DNA from: a phage
DNA length: 64,000 nt
Reading direction: 5' to 3' (one strand)
Sequence record: PV357172.2
Positions within the stretch are counted from its first letter, which is position 1; each line of letters opens with the position of its first letter. Positions 6,431-36,645 of this stretch are shown here, in pieces. A program made the translations under genes and the position numbers. The notes under the pieces were generated by a model. That model saw only the letters and a program-made list of their open reading frames with translations, did no database searches and was not told the DNA's origin.

Positions 6431-7108
6431 ATGACTAACTATCTCGTAAATGACTTTAAAAACTGGAAACCTCTGGAATATCTGTGGCTGCTCATAGCGG
6501 TTGTCTTCATTAGTTTAGCAAACTATAATGGTACAGCTCTAGATTGGGCTACTGCAATAACCAATGTGGTTTGTGTTATTCTGGTTGCAAAAGGACGTGT
6601 TTCCAACTATATTTGGGGCTTAGTGGGTGTTCTTACATATGGTATTACAGCTTTAAACGCAGATCTTTATGGTAACGCTGCACTAAACCTGCTATACTAC
6701 GTTCCTATGCAGTTTTATGGAATGTACTTATGGCATAAAAATAAACCAAGTAATCTGCCAGACGTTCCAACTAAGGTTCTGACTAAAGCTCAGGCTTTAT
6801 TAACTCTTGGGATTCTAGCAGTAGCTACTCTAGGCTATGGCAGCTTCCTCGCTACCACAGCAGATCCGTTCCCAATGCTCGATGCATTTACTGCGGTTGG
6901 TAGTGTAATTGCTATGTGGCTTATGGTCAAGCAGTATGCTGAACAATGGCTAATCTGGATTGCCATTAATATTGGTACTGTATACATTTGGTTTGTAACT
7001 GCTCAGTCTACAGGTGCTTCTTATGCAATCCTAGCAATGTGGCTGGTATTCTTTGGTAACTCTGTACTTGGAGCCTATAAAGGGTACTTTGTACGCGTTA
7101 ACAAATAA
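6431..7108 (+). CDS. pnuC: PnuC-like nicotinamide riboside transporter
   Basis: About 225-aa polytopic membrane protein immediately after the NadR-like gene, Trp-rich helices as in PnuC. Confidence 0.6.
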   Translation: MTNYLVNDFKNWKPLEYLWLLIAVVFISLANYNGTALDWATAITNVVCVILVAKGRVSNYIWGLVGVLTYGITALNADLYGNAALNLLYYVPMQFYGMYLWHKNKPSNLPDVPTKVLTKAQALLTLGILAVATLGYGSFLATTADPFPMLDAFTAVGSVIAMWLMVKQYAEQWLIWIAINIGTVYIWFVTAQSTGASYAILAMWLVFFGNSVLGAYKGYFVRVNK

Positions 7109-7115
7109 AATAGTT

Positions 7116-7138
7116 ATAGCCCTCAAAGCGAGGGCTAT
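7116..7138 (+). terminator. terminator-like hairpin
   Basis: ATAGCCCTC-AAAGC-GAGGGCTAT hairpin after the PnuC-like gene. Confidence 0.45.
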
Positions 7139-7155
7139 TATCCAGAAAATTTCAC

Positions 7156-7184
7156 TTGCTAAATGCCGAGATTTTCTGTATAAT
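7156..7184 (+). promoter_or_regulatory. sigma70-like early promoter
   Basis: TTGCTA 7156-7161, TATAAT 7179-7184. Confidence 0.6.
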
Positions 7185-7198
7185 ATATTTATAAATTC

Positions 7199-7290
7199 GG
7201 AAGATTAACCCTAATTGGTAAGGGAGCATCTTGCTAAGTTGCCAGTAGCTGTGGAAACACGGTGTATCGGTTCAAGTCCGATATCTTCCT
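7199..7290 (+). tRNA. tRNA-Ser (GCT), long variable arm
   Basis: Perfect acceptor GGAAGAT/ATCTTCC, anticodon loop TTGCTAA, T-loop TTCAAGT, encoded CCA. Confidence 0.75.
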
Positions 7291-7298
7291 CCAAATTT

Positions 7299-7373
7299 GG
7301 TTCTCAAGCTCATTTGGTATGAGCCGTCGCCTCATAAGCGAAAGGTAGGTAGGTTCGAATCCTCCGGGAGCCA
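7299..7373 (+). tRNA. tRNA-Met/fMet/Ile2 (CAT)
   Basis: D-stem GCTC/GAGC, anticodon loop CTCATAA, T-loop TTCGAAT, encoded CCA. Confidence 0.7.
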
Positions 7374-7393
7374 CCAGATAACTAGGAGACTTT

Positions 7394-7582
7394 ATGTCAC
7401 GCTTTCACGAAATTAAGCAAGAACTGGAAGAACTCGCCTGTCCTGAATGCTTTGGGACAGGTGAATGGAATGATGCTGAACCCGGGGATACGCGGTTTAA
7501 CACTTACGTTTGCACTCACTGTGAAGGTACTGGTGTAAACCCTCTTTACACTATTTCTCTTTTTGTAGGGGTTGCTAAATAA
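7394..7582 (+). CDS. small zinc-ribbon protein (CPEC...CTHCEG)
   Basis: 62-aa ORF with two CxxC pairs and AGGAG SD. Confidence 0.5.
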   Translation: MSRFHEIKQELEELACPECFGTGEWNDAEPGDTRFNTYVCTHCEGTGVNPLYTISLFVGVAK

Positions 7583-7588
7583 TGCACT

Positions 7589-7936
7589 TTGAAGATGATG
7601 AAAAAAGAAGCGTTCTACACTGTCCCAGCAATTAATCTGCTCGGTACTGTACTATTTCAGATTAAGTTCTACCTGCGAGACGACTACACTGAAGTGGTAA
7701 ACGCTATTGTACCTGAGTTCTTCGTAAATAATTTCCAAAAGGACTTTAAGTTCTTTATTGATGATGTTTACGATGGTGTGGTTGATCCGGCAGTAGCTCC
7801 AGCTATATACAATGTATTTAATTCTCTGCCAGATCTAGATTTTGATCTAGGACTTATTGAGTCTGGTGAGATTATCTGGGCACTTAATGTTCCAGTGACT
7901 GGATTCCCTGGTTGGCTGCAAGGTTACGAACTCTAA
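7589..7936 (+). CDS. hypothetical protein (115 aa)
   Basis: Track ORF; alternative start codon; no domain recognised. Confidence 0.45.
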   Translation: MKMMKKEAFYTVPAINLLGTVLFQIKFYLRDDYTEVVNAIVPEFFVNNFQKDFKFFIDDVYDGVVDPAVAPAIYNVFNSLPDLDFDLGLIESGEIIWALNVPVTGFPGWLQGYEL

Positions 7937-7944
7937 CAAAATTT

Positions 7945-8027
7945 GGATCTGTGGTGGAATTGGCAATACACACCATGCTTAAAACGTGGCGCTTAAATGA
8001 TTGAGGGTTCGAGCCCCTCCAGATCCA
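7945..8027 (+). tRNA. tRNA-Leu (TAA), long variable arm
   Basis: Acceptor GGATCTG/CAGATCC, anticodon loop CTTAAAA, T-arm GAGGG-TTCGAGC-CCCTC, encoded CCA. Confidence 0.7.
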
Positions 8028-8182
8028 CCAAATTAAGGAAGTAAAAATGAAATCTATTAAGAAAGCACTGCGTAAATTTATGTATTGTCGTTTTCATAGC
8101 ATCAAGGCTTCAACTAATGGTACTACTTACGATCGCTATGATCCTAAGTTTGGCTTACATTCTAAATAACTGGAGAAAACAA

Positions 8183-8389
8183 ATGGCTAATCCTGAAATT
8201 ACGGCACAACGCTTTATGCTGAAAGGAATTATTGCTGAAGCAGGCATGACAGAAGAAGTTGCAGATTTTCAAAAGCAATTCCTCAATATTCTCACTCAAG
8301 CCAAAGAGCTAGGAGAGAAAGAACATGGCGCGGCTATTATGGCAATCACATTGGTTGGGCTTGATCTGGCTGAAGAATCAGGAGTTTAA
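8183..8389 (+). CDS. hypothetical protein
   Basis: ATG 8183 preceded by GGAG; in frame with track ORF 8117-8389. Confidence 0.45.
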   Translation: MANPEITAQRFMLKGIIAEAGMTEEVADFQKQFLNILTQAKELGEKEHGAAIMAITLVGLDLAEESGV

Positions 8390-8419
8390 CTCCTCCAAGC
8401 AGAAATTTTAAAAATGTAC

Positions 8420-8449
8420 TTGCTTTTTACTTAAGATTTCTGCTATAAT
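8420..8449 (+). promoter_or_regulatory. sigma70-like early promoter
   Basis: TTGCTT 8420-8425, TATAAT 8444-8449. Confidence 0.55.
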
Positions 8450-8478
8450 AGTTATATAAGTTGATGAGAGGAATCAGA

Positions 8479-8754
8479 ATGTTAAAACGTTTTGCAGCAA
8501 CTGGTATTGAAAGCTCAGTATGTAAATCCTGGGGTGGTTGGGAAGGTGAGATCGAGTGGCTTTATTTCTACAATGTAGAACTTCTTCCAGAGATCAAAGC
8601 TCAATGTATTGAGGCTGGTATGGCTCCTGATGCTACGGCTGATGTTGAAATCAGCATGAATAAGCTAGAGGGTCGAGTAGTCACTGTTACTGATGAAGGT
8701 GAAGAGGTATTCGAACTTCCATTCACTTTGAAAGTCACTCCTTCATTTGATTAA
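8479..8754 (+). CDS. hypothetical protein
   Basis: ATG 8479 after conserved GATGAGAGG leader; in frame with track ORF. Confidence 0.5.
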   Translation: MLKRFAATGIESSVCKSWGGWEGEIEWLYFYNVELLPEIKAQCIEAGMAPDATADVEISMNKLEGRVVTVTDEGEEVFELPFTLKVTPSFD

Positions 8755-8785
8755 CTGATACAGCACTGAGCAAGTTCTTTAAAAT

Positions 8786-8819
8786 TTGACTTGCTCAGTA
8801 CCTTAAAACTTGGTATAAT
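8786..8819 (+). promoter_or_regulatory. sigma70-like early promoter
   Basis: TTGACT/TTGCTC 8786-8796, TATAAT 8814-8819. Confidence 0.55.
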
Positions 8820-8889
8820 AGTTATCTAATTTGGAAACATATTTAAAAGTATTCAAATACTAGTTTAAACACTTTTAAATGTACATCGT

Positions 8890-8963
8890 TGGCAGAATGG
8901 CTATTGTAGCGGTCTGTAAATCCGTGCCCTTCGGGATTGGTGGTTCGAATCTTACACGGCCCG
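8890..8963 (+). tRNA. tRNA-like element with Tyr-type anticodon loop (CTGTAAA); possible pseudogene
   Basis: GGTTCGAATC T-loop and CCA end are present but acceptor and T-stems do not pair canonically. Confidence 0.2.
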
Positions 8964-9068
8964 CCAAATTCTGTGTAGAGTTAAGTAAACCGGTAGCCAA
9001 CCAGCTATCATTGCTGACATCGAATTCAGCCACAGATACCATTTTCATTAATAACTGAGGAAATAGAT

Positions 9069-9254
9069 ATGACAACTCGTGCAATTGCTCGACTAGAAGC
9101 TGATCGTGATAATCTGATTAATAATATTAAGGTTCGTGGTAATATTATTAAGGCTCTGAAAGCTGAACTTCTTGAAGAACTTCAAGGTCAAGTAGAGCGT
9201 CGTGAAGCTCTAAAAGAGGTTGAGGAAGCTATCGAAAAACTCAAAGCTGAGTAA
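9069..9254 (+). CDS. small coiled-coil protein (61 aa)
   Basis: Track ORF with GAGGAAATAG SD-like sequence. Confidence 0.45.
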   Translation: MTTRAIARLEADRDNLINNIKVRGNIIKALKAELLEELQGQVERREALKEVEEAIEKLKAE

Positions 9255-9257
9255 ATT

Positions 9258-9839
9258 ATGCACGGAATATCCTTACCAATTCCAGGGTTTGAGGAGTACT
9301 TAGTAAGTTTGGATGGGTTAGTATTTAGTATCAAATCAAACAAAATACTAACCCCAATAACCAGTAATTACGGATACTTATCTATACGTCTCCATAAAAA
9401 TGGTCAACAGAGAAATACCGGTGTACATAGGATTTTAGCATGTGCATTTAAGAAATTACCAAGTCTAGACTCTGAACTAGAAGTTGACCATATTAACACA
9501 GACATTACTTATTGGGGTCTTAATAACTTACAAGTGCTCACAAAAGAGCAGCATCTAGAAAAGACTTTAAAAGATAAAGGATTTAGTAAACTAAACCATG
9601 ATAATTGTTGTAAGGATTGTGGTAAAGCTATTTCTTTAAAAGCTGAAAAATGTCAGGAGTGCTCTTCACATAAACCAAAAGATATCTCTATAACTAAAGA
9701 AATAATCGAGGTTACAGTAAGAGAGCTAGGCTGGTCAGGTGCAGGGAGAAAGTTAAGTTATTCAGATAATGGGTTGCGTAAAAGATACACTTCTTTAGGA
9801 GGCAATCCTAAAGAACTTAAAAAGTTAAAGGTACTATAG
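9258..9839 (+). CDS. HNH homing endonuclease
   Basis: LEVDHINTD...NNLQVLTKEQH HNH motif plus C-terminal Cys-rich region; stop codon overlaps the start of tRNA-Asp. Confidence 0.8.
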   Translation: MHGISLPIPGFEEYLVSLDGLVFSIKSNKILTPITSNYGYLSIRLHKNGQQRNTGVHRILACAFKKLPSLDSELEVDHINTDITYWGLNNLQVLTKEQHLEKTLKDKGFSKLNHDNCCKDCGKAISLKAEKCQECSSHKPKDISITKEIIEVTVRELGWSGAGRKLSYSDNGLRKRYTSLGGNPKELKKLKVL

Positions 9840-9901
9840 TCTAACGGTTAGGATACTCCCCTGTCACGGGAGAGGTAGGGTTTCGATTACCCTTAGTACC
9901 G
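9830..9901 (+). tRNA. tRNA-Asp (GTC)
   Basis: Perfect acceptor GGTACTA/TAGTACC, anticodon stem CTCCC/GGGAG, loop CTGTCAC, T-arm AGGGT-TTCGATT-ACCCT, CCA. Confidence 0.85.
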
Positions 9902-9910
9902 CCAAATTAT

Positions 9911-9984
9911 ACATCCATAGCTCAATTGGTTAGAGCTACCGCCTCTTAAGCGGTAGGTTCTAGGTTCAAGTCCTAGTGGGTGTA
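9911..9984 (+). tRNA. tRNA-Lys (CTT)
   Basis: D-stem GCTC/GAGC, anticodon stem ACCGC/GCGGT, loop CTCTTAA, T-arm CTAGG-TTCAAGT-CCTAG, CCA. Confidence 0.85.
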
Positions 9985-10114
9985 CCAAACATCAGAGCAG
10001 CGTGATGTACTGCAAAGACCCAAAGTCCGGGGTGGACTTCTTGATTCAAAGGAGCAGGCACTAATTATCATTCTAGCGTGGTGGAGAGGGGACACCAGCT
10101 TGCCGAGGGTAGAA

Positions 10115-10191
10115 GCTCGTTCGATTCGAGTGAAAGAATGGTTCTCGTAAATCCGCACAAGTGATAGCAGGTTCAAGTCCTGCCTAGATTG
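10115..10191 (+). other. two tRNA-like T-arm elements without canonical acceptor stems
   Basis: GCTCG-TTCGATT-CGAGT and GCAGG-TTCAAGT-CCTGC; no complementary 5' acceptor found. Confidence 0.2.
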
Positions 10192-10200
10192 ACTTATTAT

Positions 10201-10271
10201 GCGTTCGTAGTTAAAAGGTATAATTTTTGGTTGCCAACCAGAAGTTGAGGGTTCGATTCCCTCCGACCGCA
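10201..10271 (+). tRNA. tRNA-Gly (GCC)
   Basis: Anticodon loop TTGCCAA, T-arm GAGGG-TTCGATT-CCCTC, acceptor 6/7 paired, CCA. Confidence 0.75.
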
Positions 10272-10527
10272 CCAAATTTAGGTTTCTGCTTCCTAGAGAA
10301 CGGACTCCTAGATAAACAAGGCGATGAGTTTCCGGCCGGTTCTAGTCGCTGAAAATCCTCCCGACCAGGTAGGTGTAAGTAAATGAAAGTTTACTTATTG
10401 AGTAGGTTCCGATAGACCGGCGGGTCTATTCTGGCATTTAAGAGAGGTCTCGCAAACTTCTTTGTCAGCCGTGGGGTTGGTAGCCTCCAGGTGGCCTACA
10501 CAATAAGTAAATTTATTAAAAATTCAT

Positions 10528-10556
10528 TTGCTATTCTGCTTAATTCTCTGTATAAT
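10528..10556 (+). promoter_or_regulatory. sigma70-like early promoter
   Basis: TTGCTA 10528-10533, TATAAT 10551-10556. Confidence 0.6.
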
Positions 10557-10587
10557 ATATTTTATAAAGTGAGTTAACAAAAATTAA

Positions 10588-10660
10588 CAGTGCGTAGCGC
10601 AGTTGGTAGCGTGGGAGCCTTGGGTGCTTCGGGTCGCAGGTTCGAGTCCTGCCGCACTGA
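10588..10660 (+). tRNA. tRNA-Pro (TGG)
   Basis: Perfect acceptor CAGTGCG/CGCACTG, anticodon loop CTTGGGT, T-arm GCAGG-TTCGAGT-CCTGC, CCA. Confidence 0.85.
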
Positions 10661-10669
10661 CCAAACAAT

Positions 10670-10744
10670 TGCGGGTTAGATCTCTGGTAGAGATCGCTAG
10701 TCTCATAAGCTAGAAAGAGGTAGGTTCGATTCCTGCACCCGCTT
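10670..10744 (+). tRNA. tRNA with CAT anticodon (Met/fMet/Ile2)
   Basis: Anticodon stem CTAGT/GCTAG, loop CTCATAA, T-loop TTCGATT, 1:72 U-U mismatch, CCA. Confidence 0.75.
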
Positions 10745-10921
10745 CCATTTTAATAGAGGATTTCGAAATGAAAGTATTTCGATTAGTAGTAAGTGACAAA
10801 CGGTTAGGTAAGAATACATCAAAATCCTTACTTGCTCATTATGGTAAAAATTGGGATGAAGTAATGGCAGAGTTTAATACTAATCACCCTTACTTGAAAG
10901 TTCACTCTATTAAGGAAGTTT

Positions 10922-11395
10922 ATGCTTATTAACAGGGTGCTTCAAGCTCTAGATCTTCCAGAGCTCTTTACTATTACCGACCCCTTAATACATCGGTATA
11001 TGGAAAAGTATAATGAAATCTCTGGTAAAAAAGGGAAACTAAAATCCTCAGAATTTAAGTTCTGTTATAGAATGGCAGCATTAAACCTCTTAAAGTACAA
11101 GAGGGAGCATAAAATCCCTATAACAGAAGGATTTGTCTATGTAATAGGTAGTCCAGCATGGCCTGGACTATATAAGATAGGTATGACAGTAGATGTGAAT
11201 GAAAGACTGTCTAGTTATCAAACATATTCGCCTTATCGTGATTACAAGTTATACCATTTCAGATTCTCCTCGGACAAGAGAAGAACTGAAAAAGCATTAC
11301 ATAACCTTCTGAAGGACTACAAAGTATCAGGAGAATGGTTTGAAGTACCTCTGTTAGACGCCTTCAAACTATTAGTAGAAAATTTGGATTGCTAA
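10922..11395 (+). CDS. GIY-YIG-like (T5orf172-domain) homing endonuclease
   Basis: GFVYVIGS...YKIGMT...ERLSSY...EWFEV matches the T5orf172 pattern; stop overlaps tRNA-Lys start. Confidence 0.65.
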   Translation: MLINRVLQALDLPELFTITDPLIHRYMEKYNEISGKKGKLKSSEFKFCYRMAALNLLKYKREHKIPITEGFVYVIGSPAWPGLYKIGMTVDVNERLSSYQTYSPYRDYKLYHFRFSSDKRRTEKALHNLLKDYKVSGEWFEVPLLDAFKLLVENLDC

Positions 11396-11460
11396 CTCAA
11401 CTGGATAAGAGTACCGGACCTTTAATCCGTCAGTTCTGGGTTCGAATCCCAGGCAATCCA
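11386..11460 (+). tRNA. tRNA-Lys (TTT)
   Basis: Perfect acceptor GGATTGC/GCAATCC, D-stem ACTC/GAGT, loop CCTTTAA (unusual C33), T-arm CTGGG-TTCGAAT-CCCAG, CCA. Confidence 0.75.
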
Positions 11461-11481
11461 CCAATTTCAAGAAAAACTCAG

Positions 11482-11511
11482 TTGCTTGATGCTTAATTTC
11501 TTGTTATAATA
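11482..11511 (+). promoter_or_regulatory. sigma70-like early promoter
   Basis: TTGCTT 11482-11487, TATAAT 11506-11511. Confidence 0.55.
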
Positions 11512-11748
11512 TTTATATAAATTGATGAGGAGAAATCCTCATCATAGTTCACTAAGGTATTAGCTCGACCTAGGACTGGCTGCCAAAAAGCACGATCCCT
11601 ACGATTTGGGAGAAGTTCTAGATTAGTCCACTAGATTCAGCGGCAACTGAATAGTGTATCGGTTTTGCGAGATGACGCGGTTCCTTCCGCTCGAAGCGAA
11701 GGTGCTGTAGTTACGCCGAGCTAATAGCCTTAGTAAACTAAGGAATTT

Positions 11749-11819
11749 GGGGATATAGTTTAATGGTAGAACATCTGCTTTGCACGCAGAAGACGAGGGT
11801 TCAACTCCCTCTTTCTCCA
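11749..11819 (+). tRNA. tRNA-Ala (TGC)
   Basis: Anticodon stem TCTGC/GCAGA, loop TTTGCAC, T-arm GAGGG-TTCAACT-CCCTC, CCA. Confidence 0.75.
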
Positions 11820-11827
11820 CCAAATTT

Positions 11828-11909
11828 GGGGCTATGCTGGAACTGGTAGACAATACGGCCTTAGATTCCGTAGCTTAAATGCGTGGGAGTTCGAGTCTCC
11901 CTAGCCCCA
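11828..11909 (+). tRNA. tRNA-Leu (TAG), long variable arm
   Basis: Perfect acceptor GGGGCTA/TAGCCCC, anticodon TAG in the loop, T-arm GGGAG-TTCGAGT-CTCCC, CCA. Confidence 0.65.
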
Positions 11910-11928
11910 CCAACTTATAGGGTAATGT

Positions 11929-12513
11929 ATGCAGTTTGTACCAATAAAAGATGCACCAGGGTATTTAGTAAATGAAACAGGGGATGTGTTATCTACATTT
12001 ACTAATAAAATCTTATCAAGATATATAGTTGATGGGTACCCTGCTGTAAAATTACAGATAAATGGTAAGCAAACTTCGGTACTTATACACCGAATTATTT
12101 CTCATGTATTTGGGGACTTATATAATCTATTTGACCCTGAATTAGAAGTAGATCACAAGGATAGAGATAGGCTGAATCTATCTAAAGATAATCTTCAAGT
12201 TTTATCAAAAATAGAACATCAGAAGAAAACTAATAAAGATAATGGATGGTCTGATAGTAGAGTACCTTGCCCCTTATGTGGAAATCTAATGCTTCAGAGA
12301 TCAGTAACATGTACAAATTGTAAGCCAAAACCTACAGGAAAGTTAATAAAACCAGAATTGTCCTTAGAAGACATAACTGAAAAGGTTTTATTAATGGGGT
12401 GGGTTAAGGCAGCTAAAGATCTAGAAGTATCAGAGTCCACTTTACGTAGACGATATACTAAACTAACCGGATTAAGCCCGAAAGTATTAACAGAACAACG
12501 GAAAAGCAAATAG
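11929..12513 (+). CDS. HNH homing endonuclease
   Basis: HRIISHVFG...LEVDHKDRDRLNLSKDNLQVL HNH motif plus CxxC pairs; 3' end overlaps tRNA-Ser. Confidence 0.8.
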   Translation: MQFVPIKDAPGYLVNETGDVLSTFTNKILSRYIVDGYPAVKLQINGKQTSVLIHRIISHVFGDLYNLFDPELEVDHKDRDRLNLSKDNLQVLSKIEHQKKTNKDNGWSDSRVPCPLCGNLMLQRSVTCTNCKPKPTGKLIKPELSLEDITEKVLLMGWVKAAKDLEVSESTLRRRYTKLTGLSPKVLTEQRKSK

Positions 12514-12590
12514 ACTGGTGACTAAACCCGATTGGAAATCGGTTGAGTGGTAGCAATACCGCCTTATGGGTTCAACTCCCATCTTTTCCG
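12500..12590 (+). tRNA. tRNA-Ser (GGA), long variable arm
   Basis: Perfect acceptor GGAAAAG/CTTTTCC, anticodon loop TTGGAAA, T-arm ATGGG-TTCAACT-CCCAT, CCA. Confidence 0.7.
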
Positions 12591-12605
12591 CCAAACAATT
12601 TATAT

Positions 12606-12697
12606 GGTAGGTCAATCCAATGGCTGGCGCTGGACTCCGACTTGAAATCGGTTGATCGTAGTGATACGGTGTAAGGGTTCGATCCCCTTACCTACCT
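12606..12697 (+). tRNA. tRNA-Ser (TGA), long variable arm
   Basis: Perfect acceptor GGTAGGT/ACCTACC, anticodon loop CTTGAAA, T-arm AAGGG-TTCGATC-CCCTT, CCA. Confidence 0.7.
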
Positions 12698-12712
12698 CCA
12701 AATCTTGAAGTA

Positions 12713-12837
12713 TGCCGGAATCGGTAGACGGGGCTGCCTAAAAGGTTTATAGGGAACATCCACTCCCTGCAACATACCTCATAAAGCGGCTGAGATAAAT
12801 GGTCTATCTCGTGAAGGTTCAAGTCCTTCTGCTTCTT
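12713..12837 (+). other. tRNA-like element (type-II D-arm and a T-arm, no canonical acceptor stem)
   Basis: GGAATCGGTAGACGG D-arm-like segment and GAAGG-TTCAAGT-CCTTC T-arm separated by about 80 nt. Confidence 0.2.
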
Positions 12838-13066
12838 GATACATCTATGGCTCAAAGTGTAACGGTGCTATTTGATGCTCTTGGTAAGACTTCCCCGACA
12901 TGCGTTCGGGAGTAAGCTGCTAAGACTAGAGTAGAAGAGTTTCTGAGAGCCGCCACAATTGAAAATTCGTACTCGTCTTGAGCTGCGTGCAATAGGAGAT
13001 AACTTGATTAGTATTCTAGAACATGCTAATTGAGGATGGTTTCGCTAACCCTGCGAGTTTTCAATT

Positions 13067-13140
13067 GTGGCTATATCATAATTGGTTAATGATCCTGATT
13101 GTGAATCAGGCCTATGTGGATTCGAATTCCACTAGCCACC
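13067..13140 (+). tRNA. tRNA-His (GTG)
   Basis: Perfect acceptor GTGGCTA/TAGCCAC, anticodon stem CCTGA/TCAGG, loop TTGTGAA, T-arm GTGGA-TTCGAAT-TCCAC, CCA. Confidence 0.8.
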
Positions 13141-13168
13141 CCAAATTAACTTAAATAGGAAATAAAAT

Positions 13169-13369
13169 ATGGCTGATTTCTGCAAGCAATGCTCCCTTGA
13201 TATGTGGGGCAGAGATACTGGTGACTTATCTGGTCTGATTACAGAAGCCGAAGTCAAAGAAGGTTATAGTGCAGTTGTGATTTGTGAAGGCTGCGGTGTT
13301 ATCCGTGTAGACCACACCGGTAAGCGTTTGGAAGAACCAGTTCCAATTGCGCAAGTTCCTGTAGAATAA
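13169..13369 (+). CDS. small zinc-ribbon protein (66 aa)
   Basis: CKQC ... CEGCG Cys pairs. Confidence 0.5.
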   Translation: MADFCKQCSLDMWGRDTGDLSGLITEAEVKEGYSAVVICEGCGVIRVDHTGKRLEEPVPIAQVPVE

Positions 13370-13377
13370 AAAATTAT

Positions 13378-13450
13378 TGGAGTGTAGCTCAACTGGCAGA
13401 GCGACGGTTTCTGACACCGTAGGTTTCTAGTTCGATCCTAGACATTCCAG
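13378..13450 (+). tRNA. tRNA-Gln (CTG)
   Basis: D-stem GCTC/GAGC, anticodon stem ACGGT/ACCGT, loop TTCTGAC, T-arm TCTAG-TTCGATC-CTAGA, CCA. Confidence 0.85.
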
Positions 13451-13459
13451 CCAAACAAT

Positions 13460-13534
13460 TGGGGATTAGCTTAGCTTGGCCTAAAGCTTCGGCCTTTGAA
13501 GTCGAGATCATTGGTTCAAATCCAATATCCCCTG
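13460..13534 (+). tRNA. tRNA-Gln (TTG)
   Basis: Anticodon stem TCGGC/GTCGA, loop CTTTGAA, T-arm ATTGG-TTCAAAT-CCAAT, 1:72 U-U, CCA. Confidence 0.75.
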
Positions 13535-13545
13535 CCAAACAATAA

Positions 13546-13618
13546 GCGATTAAGCACACGGGTTGTGCCGCAGGCCTTCCAAGCCCCGCTGAGTAGGGTT
13601 CGATTCCCTCTAGCCGCT
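13546..13618 (+). tRNA. tRNA, anticodon uncertain (possibly Trp CCA)
   Basis: Good T-arm (TTCGATT), acceptor with one mismatch and CCA end; anticodon stem pairs poorly. Confidence 0.5.
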
Positions 13619-13638
13619 CCAACTTTAAGGAAACATTT

Positions 13639-13860
13639 ATGCACGTTTTTGAGTTTCGTGATAAAAGTAACAATAAACGAGTTATTGTTATTGGAGAAAC
13701 ATACCTAGCATACGAACAAACTGATGGCTCTGTTATCTTGAATGATGAGAAAGCAAATTTTAGCTTTTATCCAGAAGAACCTTATGAAGAGTTTCGTACT
13801 AAGTTTCTTTTACCAGACTGGCTAGCAGTAGCCGAGCAACGAGAATCCGAAGATGGCTGA
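13639..13860 (+). CDS. hypothetical protein (73 aa)
   Basis: Track ORF with AAGGAAA SD-like sequence. Confidence 0.5.
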   Translation: MHVFEFRDKSNNKRVIVIGETYLAYEQTDGSVILNDEKANFSFYPEEPYEEFRTKFLLPDWLAVAEQRESEDG

Positions 13861-14025
13861 TAACCTAAAATTAAGGGTTGACAAACAAAAGAAATACGTT
13901 GAGGTTGAATTAGGCGAAGAACGCTTAAAGCTAACTTTCGAGTTTCTTCAGCAGTTGGCTATGACAGTCATGACTGATAAGTCTCCTGTTATTGAAAAAG
14001 AAATCCCGTTGAAATAGGAAGCAAC

Positions 14026-14418
14026 ATGGAGTTTACTTGTTTAAATTGCGGAATCACAAAACCTAAAAGTAGGGGTTCCGCAGGTAAGTATTGTGGTGCT
14101 GCTTGTCAGCAGGAGTACCAGACAAAGCAAAAAGTATTAAAGTGGCTGGCAGGTGAAGAACCTGGTTATACTGGTAAAGCTGCACAATTAAAACCTTTTG
14201 TTAGGAAGTGGCTGTGGGATACTCGTGGTACTGCTTGTGAAGTATGTGGTTGGGATGGGAAACATCCAATTGACGGAGCAGTTTTAACTGAGGTAGATCA
14301 TATAGATGGAGATGCAACTAACTGTTCTCCAGAAAATCTAAAGATTCTCTGCCCTAACTGTCACTCTATGACACCTACGCATAGGGCCAGAAATAGAGTT
14401 TCAACAAGACAACGATAG
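14026..14418 (+). CDS. HNH endonuclease (zinc-binding)
   Basis: VDHIDGD...NLKILCPNCH HNH motif plus N-terminal CxxC pairs; stop TAG supplies G1 of tRNA-Thr. Confidence 0.75.
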   Translation: MEFTCLNCGITKPKSRGSAGKYCGAACQQEYQTKQKVLKWLAGEEPGYTGKAAQLKPFVRKWLWDTRGTACEVCGWDGKHPIDGAVLTEVDHIDGDATNCSPENLKILCPNCHSMTPTHRARNRVSTRQR

Positions 14419-14489
14419 CTCTTAAAGCATTGCTGGCGATGCAACGGTCTTGTAAACCGTGGAACCGGGTTCGATTCCTGGTGGGAGCA
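14418..14489 (+). tRNA. tRNA-Thr (TGT)
   Basis: Acceptor GCTCTTA/TGGGAGC, anticodon stem ACGGT/ACCGT, loop CTTGTAA, T-arm CCGGG-TTCGATT-CCTGG, CCA. Confidence 0.8.
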
Positions 14490-14507
14490 CCAAAATTAAA
14501 AAATTCA

Positions 14508-14537
14508 TTTGCCTTCTCTCTTATTTCTTGTTATAAT
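14508..14537 (+). promoter_or_regulatory. sigma70-like early promoter
   Basis: TTTGCC -35-like 14508-14513, TATAAT 14532-14537. Confidence 0.5.
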
Positions 14538-14567
14538 ATTTATATAAATTAATGAGAGGGAAACCAA

Positions 14568-14861
14568 ATGAAACGTTATCTTTCTGTCGTGTTCCAAACT
14601 GGTGGTCAACGCTACACTTATGAATTTCCTGAGTCCTGGAAAATTAAAGAAGGTGATCAAGTTGTTGTATTAACACCTCGTGAAGGCTTCAAAGTAGTAA
14701 CGGTTAAACAAGTATTTCCAAAAGATCACGAACCATCTAAGGCTATTCAGTACAAGATGATTCATGGTCTGGTACGAAAAGTACCTAGAACAGAAGTCGA
14801 AGTAGATAAAACTGGGGAAGCTAAATACCAGTATACCTCTTACTTAGATGAAATGATGTAA
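14568..14861 (+). CDS. hypothetical protein (97 aa)
   Basis: Track ORF after promoter and GAGAGGGAAACC leader. Confidence 0.5.
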   Translation: MKRYLSVVFQTGGQRYTYEFPESWKIKEGDQVVVLTPREGFKVVTVKQVFPKDHEPSKAIQYKMIHGLVRKVPRTEVEVDKTGEAKYQYTSYLDEMM

Positions 14862-14862
14862 T

Positions 14863-14935
14863 GCTCTGATAGTTCAACAGGTTAGAACAGACGACCGATA
14901 ATCGTCAAATCTTGGTTCGATCCCAAGTCGGAGTA
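14863..14935 (+). tRNA. tRNA-Ile (GAT)
   Basis: Anticodon stem GACGA/TCGTC, loop CCGATAA, T-arm CTTGG-TTCGATC-CCAAG, CCA. Confidence 0.8.
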
Positions 14936-14944
14936 CCAAATTAT

Positions 14945-15017
14945 AGTTAGTTGGCAGAGTGGTTATGCACCTCCTTCATACGGAGCGACTACAGTGGTTC
15001 AAATCCACTACTAACTA
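14945..15017 (+). tRNA. tRNA with CAT anticodon (Met/fMet/Ile2)
   Basis: Perfect acceptor AGTTAGT/ACTAACT, loop TTCATAC, T-arm AGTGG-TTCAAAT-CCACT, CCA. Confidence 0.8.
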
Positions 15018-15023
15018 CCAAAC

Positions 15024-15062
15024 AGAGGATCTGGTCATTGTACCAGATCTCTGTGTTTATTA
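15024..15062 (+). terminator. rho-independent terminator closing the tRNA cluster
   Basis: AGAGGATCTGGT...ACCAGATCTCT hairpin followed by a T-rich run. Confidence 0.6.
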
Positions 15063-15203
15063 AACTGAATGGGACTATCAATCCACAAGCCGGACTACGA
15101 GCGATTATCGGGTATTCACTTAATAAACAGCCTGCCCCCCAGTTTTTATCTTGCTTCTGGGTTAACAAAAAGCTGAGCCAAATTCTAATATCAGGGAGAT
15201 CTA

Positions 15204-15572
15204 ATGAAAGCATATCAAAATCTTAAATCCGGCGTAATTAACCTTGTTCATGAAAATCAGATCATTCAGCTATACTCTAAAGACGGTGAACTTAAACAGA
15301 AAGTTCTAGTTGAAGATCTAGAAGGTATCACACCTCACTTTGACCCTGAAGCCTTTCGCATTGTAGATGTGGAAGTGGTTCCCCAAGTCGAGGGTGGTCA
15401 GCACCTAAATGTCAATGTGTTAAGCCGTGATCAGCTTTTAGATGCACAGAAACATCCTGAAAAATATCCTCAGTTGACCATCCGTGTCTCTGGCTATGCT
15501 GTTCGATTTAACGCATTGACGCGTGAACAACAGAACGACGTTATTAGTCGTACATTTACTCAGGCGATATAA
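15204..15572 (+). CDS. grcA: GrcA-like autonomous glycyl-radical cofactor
   Basis: C-terminal [12 protein letters not shown]...[20 protein letters not shown] matches the glycyl-radical motif of E. coli GrcA/YfiD and the pyruvate formate-lyase C-terminus. Confidence 0.8.
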
Positions 15573-15653
15573 TGGGGTTTGGATACGATTTCTCCCAGCT
15601 ACGCAAGGTAGTCGAGCAAACTCCGTTTATCTCCCAAGTTTTAGGAGAAATGT

Positions 15654-15968
15654 GTGGATCGAGCATTAAGACGCCATCACCGGCAACGTGTGAAGAACAA
15701 CCGCAAGAAGTATTGGACAGTCTTTCCACATGAAGAAAGCCCTAAGCGATTAGGTATTATCACTACTACTCCTTGCATCTGTTCTTGCTGGATGTGTGGG
15801 AACCCTCGCAAATATTATAAGAATAGTAAAGCAGGTATGAAAACCTCGGAGATCAGGAAAATGGGAGCAATGATTATGGGCATCTCAAATGATGAATTTG
15901 ATGGCTTTGTAGGATTCGGAGAAGGAACTAGCTCAGGCTGTTTCGAATATGAACTCCCCGATCTGTGA
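15654..15968 (+). CDS. hypothetical Cys-rich protein (104 aa)
   Basis: Track ORF with CICSCWMC cluster. Confidence 0.45.
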   Translation: MDRALRRHHRQRVKNNRKKYWTVFPHEESPKRLGIITTTPCICSCWMCGNPRKYYKNSKAGMKTSEIRKMGAMIMGISNDEFDGFVGFGEGTSSGCFEYELPDL

Positions 15969-15976
15969 TTAACAAC

Positions 15977-16014
15977 AAACCCCAGCTATGGAATAAGTAG
16001 TCTGGGGTTTTTCT
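15977..16014 (+). terminator. rho-independent terminator
   Basis: AACCCCAG...CTGGGGTT hairpin followed by TTTT. Confidence 0.6.
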
Positions 16015-16089
16015 ATATACAGGTAAATAATTTATGTATAATAAAATTCACCCACATTAGGTTAATTCAAAAGACTTAATGGAGGTAAT

Positions 16090-16437
16090 ATGAGCCGTAC
16101 TTATCGTAGACAAACTGGTGATCAGTGGTGGAAGTCTAAAGCTAATTACACCCAGGGGTATACTTTCCTCAAAGCAAGTGGCTACTGGATTCGTGTTATT
16201 TATGCTAAATCCTGGGATGATGTAGAACAGGAAATGAAGGAAGCAACTGTTCGTAATGAGAAAAAGGATGGTTATAACTGGAATTCTATTAGTAAGAATG
16301 TTAAGTGGCATTCTAATAAAATGGTTCGTCAAGGGAATCGTCAAGAACTCCACCGCGTGATGAAAGATCCAGAAAATTATGATTATAATCGCGATCATGA
16401 CATGCGTAAGCGTGGATTATGGTGGTGCTATGACTAA
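16090..16437 (+). CDS. hypothetical protein (115 aa)
   Basis: Track ORF with GGAGG SD. Confidence 0.5.
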   Translation: MSRTYRRQTGDQWWKSKANYTQGYTFLKASGYWIRVIYAKSWDDVEQEMKEATVRNEKKDGYNWNSISKNVKWHSNKMVRQGNRQELHRVMKDPENYDYNRDHDMRKRGLWWCYD

Positions 16438-16454
16438 ATTCTGAAATAATTCAT

Positions 16455-16483
16455 TTGCTAAACCTCTCTTTTCTTGCTATAAT
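16455..16483 (+). promoter_or_regulatory. sigma70-like early promoter
   Basis: TTGCTA 16455-16460, TATAAT 16478-16483. Confidence 0.6.
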
Positions 16484-16513
16484 ATATTTATAAATTGATG
16501 AGAGAGGTTTGAA

Positions 16514-36126: not shown

Positions 36127-36645
36127 ATGGGTCTATTTAAAGATATAGATTATTCGCTTGCTAATGATAACTTTTATTATGATGAAACATCCCCATCATT
36201 TCTAAGATGGAAAGTACAGAAAGGTAATAGTAAGGTGGGGGATATTGCAGGGCATTATAGTAACACAGGTTACTATCGAGTAAAGTTAGCAGGCGAACAA
36301 TACGCAGTGCATAGAATAATATGGGTATTATTTAATGGTGAGATTGATAGCAATCTAACAATCGATCATAATGATCGTAACCGTGCTAATAATAACATTA
36401 ATAATCTTCGCTTAGTAGATCATAAGCAGAATACGAATAACAAGAAAGATTATAAGCGTGCTAATAAGTTGCCTAAGCATATCTATTATAATGGTTCTAG
36501 AGTTGATAATAACGGAAGAAACTATTTGCGCGCTATAGTTAAAGATCCTACTAGTAACAAAAGTGTTAGTAAATCAGGTTATGATTTACAAGAGTTATTA
36601 TTATGGGTAGAAACTAAAAAAGCTGAATTTGGGATTGTCAATTAA
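36127..36645 (+). CDS. HNH homing endonuclease
   Basis: HRIIWVLFNGEIDSNLTIDHNDRN...NNLRLVDHKQN HNH motif. Confidence 0.8.
   Translation: MGLFKDIDYSLANDNFYYDETSPSFLRWKVQKGNSKVGDIAGHYSNTGYYRVKLAGEQYAVHRIIWVLFNGEIDSNLTIDHNDRNRANNNINNLRLVDHKQNTNNKKDYKRANKLPKHIYYNGSRVDNNGRNYLRAIVKDPTSNKSVSKSGYDLQELLLWVETKKAEFGIVN

What the first reader, a model, noticed from the sequence alone, without database searches (positions are those of the whole stretch)
9830..14489. tRNA genes start inside or directly at the stop codons of homing endonuclease genes
Four times the 5' end of a tRNA overlaps the 3' end of an upstream HNH or GIY-YIG-like ORF: tRNA-Asp at 9830 versus stop 9837-9839; tRNA-Lys at 11386 versus stop 11393-11395; tRNA-Ser at 12500 versus stop 12511-12513; tRNA-Thr at 14418, where the G of TAG is tRNA position 1. 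Endonuclease mRNAs must therefore be processed out of tRNA precursors, coupling endonuclease expression to tRNA maturation.
Basis: seen in the sequence. Interest (0 to 1): 0.5.

Follow-up and report, generated by a model that had tools for sequence, protein, structure and literature searches.

The report
Homing endonuclease genes fused onto tRNAs
In this T5-like phage, four selfish homing-endonuclease genes each sit directly against a tRNA gene and borrow their stop codon from it; the layout is real and non-random, but it is already annotated in phage T5, and its likely effect on endonuclease expression was proposed in 2008.

Summary
ARAGORN and Rfam both place the tRNA 5' ends at 9830, 11386, 12500 and 14418. 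The four upstream ORFs stop at 9837-9839, 11393-11395, 12511-12513 and 14416-14418, giving overlaps of 10, 10, 14 and 1 nt. Three ORFs are HNH endonucleases and one is T5orf172/GIY-YIG-like. All four have dN/dS of 0.05-0.09, so they are expressed proteins.

The window is the tRNA cluster of a T5-like phage. In HEG-less relatives each insert fills the whole few-nucleotide spacer, and its right edge is tRNA position +1. The overlapped tRNA is a HEG-specific allele that travels with the HEG as one high-identity block. Across 28 T5-like loci plus the window, 31 of 32 HEGs with a downstream tRNA overlap it. Neighbouring non-HEG ORFs usually stop 1-13 nt short (Fisher p = 9e-5).

The best reading is that these are mobile HEG-tRNA modules. 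If each pair is co-transcribed, RNase P cleavage at +1 removes the stop codon. That effect is inferred, not shown.

T5 itself carries the same junctions (F-TflI/tRNA-Ser2, F-TflII/tRNA-Gln2). Brok-Volchanskaya et al. 2008 proposed the processing-based down-regulation for T4 SegB and the T5 F-Tfl enzymes. Verdict: real, ordinary for this phage group, already known.

The parts
9258..9839 (+). HEG1: 193-aa HNH_3/NUMOD4 free-standing homing endonuclease, a paralogue of T5 F-TflII (42.6% aa). Its stop TAG 9837-9839 is tRNA-Asp positions 8-10.
   Evidence: dN/dS is 0.06. At least 95% identical copies occur in 56 phage records.
9830..9904 (+). tRNA-Asp(GUC), HEG-linked allele. It is 68% identical to the allele at HEG-less sites and 100% identical among HEG1 carriers.
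   Evidence: (63.1 bits)
10922..11395 (+). HEG2: 157-aa T5orf172/MUG113 (GIY-YIG-like) endonuclease. Its ATG overlaps the end of upstream ORF 10768-10932 by 11 nt. Its stop TAA 11393-11395 is tRNA-Lys positions 8-10.
   Evidence: dN/dS 0.05
11386..11463 (+). tRNA-Lys(UUU), HEG-linked allele (79-82% identical to HEG-free alleles).
   Evidence: (57.5 bits)
11929..12513 (+). HEG3: 194-aa HNH_3 endonuclease, the orthologue of T5 hegC/F-TflI (95.9% aa). It starts 17 nt after tRNA-Leu(UAG) and its stop TAG 12511-12513 is tRNA-Ser positions 12-14.
12500..12593 (+). tRNA-Ser(GGA), HEG-linked allele (74-76% identical to HEG-free alleles). This is the same junction as T5 tRNA-Ser2.
14026..14418 (+). HEG4: 130-aa HNH (PF01844) endonuclease. 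Its stop is TAG 14416-14418, and that G is tRNA-Thr position +1. It is rare, present in about 7 of 443 T5-like records.
14418..14492 (+). tRNA-Thr(UGU), HEG-linked allele (87% identical to the HEG-free allele).
   Evidence: (49.5 bits)
9069..9254 (+). Conserved small ORF that forms the left boundary of the HEG1 insert. In HEG-less phages it stops 9 nt before tRNA-Asp.
10768..10932 (+). Conserved small ORF (T5.065 homologue) that forms the left boundary of the HEG2 insert. In HEG-less phages it ends 0-2 nt before tRNA-Lys.
13853..14017 (+). Conserved small ORF (T5.059 homologue) that forms the left boundary of the HEG4 insert. In HEG-less phages it ends 8-10 nt before tRNA-Thr.
10528..10556 (+). 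Promoter-like site homologous to T5 early promoter P13a. It would drive tRNA-Pro, tRNA-fMet, ORF 10768, HEG2 and tRNA-Lys.
   Evidence: mapped by homology; not shown experimentally here
11483..11511 (+). Homologue of T5 promoter P13b (TTGCTT-17-TATAAT). It would drive RNA2H, tRNA-Ala, tRNA-Leu, HEG3, tRNA-Ser and onward, probably through HEG4 and tRNA-Thr.
14509..14537 (+). Homologue of T5 promoter P11, immediately after tRNA-Thr. It starts the next transcription unit.

Best explanation
The four overlaps mark four mobile HEG-tRNA modules in the tRNA cluster of a T5-like phage. Shown here: each free-standing homing endonuclease gene fills the whole few-nucleotide spacer 5' of a tRNA gene. It has no stop codon of its own and ends at the first in-frame stop inside the tRNA, which in two cases is U8-A9-R10. 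It is welded to a HEG-specific allele of that tRNA, and HEG plus tRNA are inherited as one high-identity block between otherwise diverged phage backbones. Inferred from established homing-endonuclease biology and the T4 SegB precedent: the enzyme cuts or nicks the HEG-less tRNA allele of a co-infecting relative. Repair then copies the HEG together with its own, presumably cleavage-resistant, tRNA allele. The physical overlap guarantees that the endonuclease and its resistant allele cannot be separated by recombination. Inferred consequence: each HEG is co-transcribed with its tRNA from T5-type early promoters, so RNase P cleavage at tRNA +1 cuts the mRNA upstream of its stop codon, or inside it for HEG4. 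That leaves a non-stop message. A normally terminated endonuclease can then be made only from transcripts that have not yet been processed, which probably keeps the nuclease level low.
For: The tRNA 5' ends and stop codons are exact and the nuclease domains are present. Purifying selection acts on all four ORFs (dN/dS 0.05-0.09). Insert boundaries against HEG-less relatives show that homology stops at the upstream ORF's end. It resumes at 14415 (tRNA-Thr +1 is 14418), 11387 (tRNA-Lys +1 is 11386), exactly 12500 (tRNA-Ser +1), and 9846, inside tRNA-Asp. The HEG-linked tRNAs are private alleles: Asp 68%, Lys 79-82%, Ser 74-76% and Thr 87% identical to HEG-free alleles. They remain good tRNAs at 63, 57.5 and 49.5 bits for Asp, Lys and Thr. 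Block inheritance is visible in identity tracts. HEG1 is 97.4% and tRNA-Asp 100% identical against 80% upstream and 61-67% immediately downstream. Upstream ORF, HEG4 and tRNA-Thr are 97.6-99% identical against flanks of 79-85%. HEG presence is sporadic; HEG4 occurs in about 7 of 443 records. The pattern is general: 31 of 32 HEGs with a downstream tRNA overlap it, across 12 HEG/tRNA combinations and four HEG clusters (two large families plus two small HNH-type ones). A T5orf172 homologue in Vibrio phage Pylo also overlaps a tRNA. T5's own records show F-TflI/tRNA-Ser2 (14 nt), F-TflII/tRNA-Gln2 (23 nt) and T5.069/tRNA-Asn (24 nt). Promoter homologues flank the HEG-tRNA pairs and never separate them. 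PMC2330249 shows that T4 SegB recognises a conserved tRNA-gene element and homes with its tRNA flank. The same paper proposes processing-based down-regulation for SegB and the T5 F-Tfl enzymes.
Against: No cleavage, RNA-end or protein data were available, so the target site, the resistance of the linked allele, co-transcription and any effect of RNase P are all inferred. Three of 12 junction types (Pro, Ala, Glu) use a tRNA allele also found at HEG-less sites, so a private allele is not obligatory. Some non-HEG ORFs also run into tRNAs (clusters C7 and C11). One HEG abuts its tRNA with its own stop and another leaves a 4-nt spacer, so the overlap is not strictly required. Translation may outrun RNase P, which would make the non-stop effect negligible.
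Confidence: 0.72

Rival explanations
1. The overlap is a passive by-product of compaction. T5-type tRNA clusters have spacers of only 0-13 nt and phage genomes lose non-essential DNA. Any inserted gene would be trimmed until it hits the essential tRNA, and the overlap would have no regulatory or linkage function.
For: Non-HEG ORFs also end 0-13 nt from tRNAs, and a few overlap them (clusters C7, C11 and C26). Overlap length simply follows the reading frame (1, 6, 8, 10, 14, 15, 23, 24 nt). Of 350 tRNA sequences, 56% carry a stop at positions 8-10, so termination comes at no cost. Outside tRNA clusters the same HEG families have no adjacent tRNA (75 of 93 loci).
Against: Compaction does not explain why HEGs overlap far more often than neighbouring ORFs (11 of 12 against 3 of 19 junction types, p = 8.8e-5). 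It also does not explain the private tRNA alleles and block inheritance. All overlaps are 24 nt or shorter, whereas only 55% of random-frame read-ins would stop that early. This rival is compatible with the module model and competes only with the claim that the overlap is selected.
Confidence: 0.3
2. The tRNA stabilises the message or couples the two products positively. The folded tRNA at the 3' end would protect the HEG mRNA from 3' exonucleases, or HEG translation would modulate tRNA maturation, so the overlap would raise or time expression rather than throttle it.
For: The contiguity itself is the main support. HEG3 is flanked on both sides by tRNAs (tRNA-Leu ends at 11912 and tRNA-Ser starts at 12500), much like a punctuated transcript.
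Against: RNase P cleavage is normally fast and would remove the protective structure. There is no specific evidence for this reading, and homing endonucleases are generally kept at low levels (PMC2330249).
Confidence: 0.08
3. The overlap is a prediction artefact: the ORFs are not real genes or the tRNA 5' ends are mis-called.
For: None was found. Some short ORFs that overlap other tRNAs in the survey are spurious read-throughs of tRNA genes (for example clusters C5 and C12).
Against: Two independent tRNA predictors agree, and perfect 7-bp acceptor stems fix +1. Pfam nuclease domains are present and dN/dS is 0.05-0.09. HEG3 is 95.9% identical to T5 hegC, which the T5 record names endonuclease F-TflI.
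Confidence: 0.01

Closest known systems
Phage T5 hegC/F-TflI with tRNA-Ser2(GGA), hegD/F-TflII with tRNA-Gln2(CUG), and T5.069 with tRNA-Asn(GUU) (GenBank AY543070 / NC_005859 / AY692264; Akulenko et al. 2004, PMID 15456135, not readable here)
   Same: Window HEG3 is the F-TflI orthologue (95.9% aa) and has the identical 14-nt overlap with tRNA-Ser(GGA). HEG1 is an F-TflII paralogue (42.6% aa). HEG2 belongs to the same T5orf172-like cluster as T5.069. All of these run 14-24 nt into the downstream tRNA.
   Different: T5 has empty sites where the window carries HEG2 (tRNA-Lys) and HEG4 (tRNA-Thr). T5 also carries the HEG-free tRNA-Asp allele, with a different small ORF upstream. The window has an empty site at tRNA-Gln(CUG), where T5 carries F-TflII.
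Phage T4 SegB (GIY-YIG) in the T4 tRNA cluster (PMC2330249)
   Same: It is a free-standing HEG inside a phage tRNA cluster and is co-transcribed with the tRNAs. It recognises a conserved tRNA-gene element and homes together with the flanking tRNA genes. The authors proposed that tRNA maturation cleaves the mRNA at its stop codon and lowers expression.
   Different: In the T4 record the segB stop codon lies 5 nt upstream of tRNA-Arg, so there is no overlap. It belongs to a different nuclease family from three of the four genes here. The overlaps in T5-like phages are deeper, up to 24 nt.
Intronless homing and marker exclusion by free-standing phage HEGs (T4 SegF, SegG and SegE, as discussed in PMC2330249)
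   Same: The HEG sits in an intergenic spacer next to its target gene. The HEG-bearing genome carries a variant of the target, and HEG plus flanking markers are co-converted. This matches the identity tracts.
   Different: In those cases the target neighbour is a protein-coding gene. Here the neighbour is a tRNA and the HEG reading frame physically ends inside it.
tRNA punctuation model of animal mitochondrial transcripts (Ojala, Montoya and Attardi 1981; cited from my own knowledge)
   Same: The mRNAs abut tRNAs with no spacer and tRNA processing defines the mRNA ends. Some stop codons are incomplete; HEG4's UA|G is formally analogous.
   Different: Mitochondrial stops are completed by polyadenylation and the system is productive. 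Here three of four stops lie wholly inside the tRNA and would be lost, and nothing shows that poly(A) addition completes HEG4's stop.

Membership tests
Free-standing homing endonuclease genes of phages | Encodes a nuclease domain of a homing-endonuclease family (HNH / GIY-YIG superfamily) | tested here: met
   Pfam: HEG2 T5orf172/MUG113 (E 3e-14 / 3e-19); HEG3 HNH_3 at 26.0 bits (cut-off 24.8); HEG4 HNH at 23.5 bits (cut-off 21.4). For HEG1, NUMOD4 is above its cut-off but HNH_3 scores only 18.5 bits, below cut-off. HEG1 nevertheless shares the invariant ELEVDH...N...H motif with F-TflI and F-TflII.
Free-standing homing endonuclease genes of phages | Sporadic presence or absence at a fixed locus among close relatives, with precise empty sites | tested here: met
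   Empty sites retain the upstream ORF, a 0-13 nt spacer and the tRNA. HEG4 is present in about 7 of 443 matching records.
Free-standing homing endonuclease genes of phages | HEG and adjacent markers are transferred together (co-conversion tract) | tested here: met
   HEG1 plus tRNA-Asp are 97-100% identical against 80% upstream and 61-67% immediately downstream. Upstream ORF, HEG4 and tRNA-Thr are 97.6-99% identical against flanks of 79-85%.
Free-standing homing endonuclease genes of phages | Site-specific cleavage or nicking of the HEG-less allele, with the HEG-bearing allele resistant | not testable with these tools
   This needs enzyme assays. Only the allele differences between HEG-linked and HEG-free tRNAs were seen.
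T5 F-Tfl endonucleases (F-TflI, II, IV) | Orthology to a named F-Tfl enzyme at the same locus | tested here: met
   HEG3 is 95.9% aa identical to T5 hegC/F-TflI and has the same tRNA-Leu / tRNA-Ser(GGA) flanks. HEG1 is only a paralogue of F-TflII (42.6%). HEG4 shows only a 43% local match to F-TflIV. HEG2 is not an F-Tfl enzyme.
Processing-coupled control of HEG expression (proposed for T4 SegB and T5 F-Tfl) | The ORF's 3' end is contiguous with or overlaps a same-strand tRNA 5' end | tested here: met
   overlaps of 10, 10, 14 and 1 nt.
Processing-coupled control of HEG expression (proposed for T4 SegB and T5 F-Tfl) | HEG and tRNA lie on one primary transcript | tested here: inconclusive
   There is no space for a promoter between them. 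Homologues of T5 P13a, P13b and P11 flank the units, and no credible + strand terminator lies within them. No RNA data were available, and a literature search found none.
Processing-coupled control of HEG expression (proposed for T4 SegB and T5 F-Tfl) | RNase P cleavage truncates the mRNA and changes endonuclease output | not testable with these tools
   This needs 3'-end mapping and protein measurements in RNase P and tmRNA mutant hosts.

The most novel reading that the evidence does not exclude
The overlap may be a selected, general design of HEG-tRNA drive cassettes in T5-like phages. In this reading the endonuclease is welded to a private, cleavage-resistant tRNA allele. RNase P removal of the shared stop codon turns every processed transcript into a non-stop mRNA, which is then subject to tmRNA tagging. 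Active nuclease would be made only in the short interval before tRNA maturation. For HEG4, the UA-3' end left by RNase P could even be restored to UAA by poly(A) addition, as in animal mitochondria. HEGs would then also be the main engine that reshuffles the phage's anti-defence tRNA repertoire.
Probability: 0.2. Interest if true: 0.55.

Novelty: already known. Interest (0 to 1): 0.27.

Why it matters
This explains much of the mosaic structure of tRNA clusters in T5-like phages. tRNA alleles are swapped as passengers of selfish endonuclease genes. That matters now that phage tRNAs are recognised as counter-defence cargo and SegB has been shown to amplify tRNA loci (PMC13096335). The stop-codon-in-tRNA layout also offers a clean natural test of whether RNase P processing and non-stop mRNA rescue throttle a toxic gene. 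I found no report testing this idea since it was published in 2008. For annotation, it warns that HEG/tRNA overlaps in these phages are genuine and should not be 'corrected'.

Tried and rejected
(1) Are the HEG-linked tRNAs decayed pseudogenes? No. Rfam scores for the Asp, Lys and Thr alleles equal or exceed those of the HEG-free alleles. Only T5's tRNA-Gln2(CUG) is weak (39 bits against 56-60), and the T5 record flags it as a pseudogene.

(2) Do the tRNAs linked to one HEG family derive from a common tRNA by anticodon switching? No. The nearest relatives are isoacceptors or unrelated tRNAs at 68-87% identity.

(3) Is the overlap a property of the HEG protein families themselves? No. In 75 of 93 IMG/VR loci encoding homologues there is no tRNA within 1.5 kb. 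The overlap appears only inside tRNA clusters.

(4) Does T4 segB overlap tRNA-Arg? No. Its stop codon lies 5 nt upstream.

(5) Akulenko et al. 2004 (PMID 15456135) could not be read, so the published F-Tfl cleavage sites could not be compared with the junctions.

(6) A search for T5 RNA-seq or end-mapping data on the tRNA region found nothing usable. A search for homing endonuclease + stop codon + RNase P returned only mitochondrial papers.

(7) The consensus promoter scan is not informative on its own (25 sites found against 21.9 expected). Promoters were therefore assigned only by homology to annotated T5 promoters.

Full report
**Observation**

ARAGORN finds 19 tRNA genes in the window. They include tRNA-Asp(GUC) 9830-9904, tRNA-Lys(UUU) 11386-11463, tRNA-Ser(GGA) 12500-12593 and tRNA-Thr(UGU) 14418-14492. 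The Rfam covariance models give the same 5' ends. In the sequence each of the four has a 7-bp acceptor stem closing on an encoded discriminator plus CCA, which fixes position +1.

The ORF list gives 9258..9839, 10922..11395, 11929..12513 and 14026..14418. In the first two cases the stop codon is tRNA positions 8-10.

Pfam identifies the ORFs as follows:
- HEG1: NUMOD4 + HNH_3
- HEG2: T5orf172/MUG113, a GIY-YIG-like domain
- HEG3: HNH_3
- HEG4: HNH

All four have a plausible Shine-Dalgarno sequence or translational coupling just upstream. Against their orthologues they show dN/dS of 0.05-0.09.

**Context**

The region is the tRNA cluster of a T5-like phage (Demerecviridae). Megablast finds 609 phage records, the best at about 91% identity.

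The T5 records annotate the same architecture:
- hegC/F-TflI overlaps tRNA-Ser2(GGA) by 14 nt.
- hegD/F-TflII overlaps tRNA-Gln2(CUG) by 23 nt.
- T5.069 (T5orf172-like) overlaps tRNA-Asn by 24 nt.

Window HEG3 is the F-TflI orthologue at 95.9% aa identity. HEG1 is an F-TflII paralogue at 42.6%. T5 has empty sites at the positions of HEG2 and HEG4.

The structured spacers between the tRNAs are homologues of the T5 stable RNAs.

**Is it more than chance?**

I fetched 27 T5-like loci from IMG/VR, anchored on the small ORF 13853-14017, and scanned them with ARAGORN and an ORF finder together with a T5 record (L001) and the window.

Of 39 HEG-like ORFs, 31 end inside a tRNA (1-24 nt), one abuts it, and seven have no tRNA within 200 nt. 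None has a spacer of 1-200 nt. The 12 distinct HEG/tRNA combinations involve four HEG clusters and eleven different tRNA genes (tRNA-Leu(UAG) is used by two clusters).

Conserved non-HEG ORFs almost always stop 1-13 nt before their tRNA. By junction type the counts are 11 of 12 overlapping for HEGs against 3 of 19 for other ORFs (Fisher p = 8.8e-5).

A T5orf172 homologue in the distant Vibrio phage Pylo overlaps tRNA-Glu by 22 nt. Outside tRNA clusters, homologues of both HEG families have no tRNA nearby (75 of 93 loci). Inside clusters, 17 overlap and one leaves a 4-nt spacer.

**What it is**

Comparison with HEG-less relatives shows that each insert is essentially the ORF alone. Homology ends at the stop of the upstream small ORF, or in its last codons for HEG2. 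For HEG3, which follows a tRNA rather than an ORF, it ends at or shortly before the 3' end of tRNA-Leu(UAG).

Homology resumes at these positions:

| HEG | Homology resumes | tRNA +1 |
|---|---|---|
| HEG4 | 14415 | 14418 (tRNA-Thr) |
| HEG2 | 11387 | 11386 (tRNA-Lys) |
| HEG3 | 12500 | 12500 (tRNA-Ser) |
| HEG1 | 9846, inside tRNA-Asp | 9830 (tRNA-Asp) |

The overlapped tRNAs are not the alleles found at empty sites:
- Asp is 68% identical, sharing only the anticodon arm.
- Lys is 79-82% identical.
- Ser(GGA) is 74-76% identical.
- Thr is 87% identical.

These alleles are still good tRNAs. Asp scores 63 bits against 47 for the HEG-free allele, Lys 57.5 and Thr 49.5.

Identity tracts show that HEG and tRNA move as a block. 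Against L023, HEG1 is 97.4% and tRNA-Asp 100% identical, whereas the sequence is 80% identical upstream and 61-67% immediately downstream. Against L003 (phage HdH2), the upstream ORF, HEG4 and tRNA-Thr are 97.6-99% identical, whereas the flanks are 79-85%.

HEG4 is rare, present in about 7 of 443 records.

Decay is also visible. In L012 and L018 hegD has been deleted. In L018 the upstream ORF is fused to the last hegD codons. In both loci it still ends inside the HEG-type tRNA-Gln allele.

Within the F-TflI/II family, the conserved C-terminal motif LR(K/R)RY..L.G..PK runs to within 1-4 codons of tRNA +1 in all four paralogues. There is no spare 3' sequence.

**Mechanism**

The shown part is the anatomy and population pattern of mobile HEG-tRNA modules.

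The first inferred part rests on established homing-endonuclease biology and on T4 SegB, which recognises a conserved tRNA-gene element and converts the neighbouring tRNA genes (PMC2330249). On that basis the enzymes attack the HEG-less tRNA allele of a co-infecting phage. Repair then copies the HEG and its private allele, and the overlap makes the two inseparable.

The second inferred part concerns expression. Homologues of T5 promoters P13a, P13b and P11 lie at ~10528, ~11483 and ~14509 and flank the HEG-tRNA pairs. Each HEG should therefore be transcribed with its tRNA. RNase P cleavage at +1 would remove the last 2-4 codons and the stop codon of HEG1-3. It would leave ...UA-3' for HEG4. 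The cleaved messages would be non-stop mRNAs.

The likely effect is to limit endonuclease synthesis, but nothing here measures it. tRNA 5' halves are rich in stop codons: 56% of 350 tRNA sequences have one at positions 8-10. Running into the tRNA therefore costs the protein only a few residues. All observed overlaps are 24 nt or shorter, whereas only 55% of random-frame read-ins would stop that early.

**Comparison with what is known**

The overlaps are annotated in the T5 genome records. Brok-Volchanskaya et al. 2008 (PMC2330249) wrote that tRNA-Arg maturation cleaves segB mRNA between its last codon and its stop codon. [quoted passage not shown] 2004 and a personal communication.

In the T4 record the segB stop lies 5 nt upstream of tRNA-Arg, so the true overlap is a T5-group feature.

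Other GenBank records already list the window's Asp, Lys and Thr junctions as overlapping features.

A 2026 paper shows that SegB amplifies tRNA loci to evade Septu (PMC13096335). It gives context on HEG activity at phage tRNA loci but does not treat the overlap.

**Verdict**

Co-transcription and processing follow from the anatomy, but the coupling is probably antagonistic. It is untested and secondary to the mobile-module explanation.

The phenomenon and the hypothesis are already in the literature and in the reference annotation. What my survey may add, since I found it in none of the papers I could read, is the strict HEG/tRNA-allele linkage and the near-universal overlap across 12 junction types. 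Interest is low to moderate.

Noticed in passing
window 12606-12696 (+): A tRNA-Ser(UGA)-like gene directly after tRNA-Ser(GGA). ARAGORN misses it, and Rfam detects it only through the tRNA-Sec model (37.6 bits, E 1.5e-4). It is the homologue of T5 tRNAS1(UGA).
   Followed up: partly
window 13547-13622 (+): The orthologue of T5 tRNA-Gly1(UCC), here with an A4.C69 mismatch in the acceptor stem. Neither ARAGORN nor Rfam calls it in the window or in T5. The T5 record nevertheless says this tRNA can be converted into an effective amber suppressor.
   Followed up: partly
window 9988-10200, 10275-10527, 11512-11748, 12700-13066 (+): The structured spacers between tRNAs are homologous to the annotated T5 stable RNAs of unknown function: RNA2, RNAIV, RNA2H, RNA1, RNAI and RNAIII.
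   Followed up: partly
L030/L031 (T5 records NC_005859 and AY543070): According to the T5 record notes, the tRNAs overlapped by HEGs behave poorly. tRNA-Ser2(GGA) and tRNA-Asn(GUU) could not be converted into amber suppressors, and tRNA-Gln2(CUG) is flagged as a pseudogene. The other two serine tRNAs work. This may mean that some HEG-linked alleles are weak tRNAs.
   Followed up: partly
L012 and L018 (upstream of tRNA-Gln(CUG)): These are HEG-loss remnants. hegD/F-TflII has been deleted. In L018 the upstream small ORF is fused to the last hegD codons, apparently through a GATCC microhomology that I saw by eye in the sequence. In both loci the ORF still ends 10 or 23 nt inside the HEG-type tRNA-Gln allele.
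   Followed up: partly
L032 2252-2829 (Vibrio phage Pylo): A T5orf172-like ORF (gp94) overlaps tRNA-Glu by 22 nt in a distant 128-kb vibriophage. Two other ORFs there (gp101 and gp106) end exactly at the nucleotide before a tRNA.
   Followed up: no
window 36127-36645 (+): A further HNH_3-like ORF (172 aa, 38% identical to the F-TflI-like cluster) lies outside the tRNA cluster, with no tRNA downstream.
   Followed up: no
window 10915-10932 (+): The HEG2 insertion rewrote the C-terminus of the upstream conserved ORF (KEVYAY* here against KEVYNGY* at most empty sites). The HEG2 ATG lies 11 nt inside that ORF, which suggests translational coupling.
   Followed up: no
window 15027-15050 (+): A terminator-like hairpin (9 bp, then a T-rich tail) lies immediately after the last tRNA of the cluster. 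It is the only credible + strand terminator candidate in 7000-16500.
   Followed up: no
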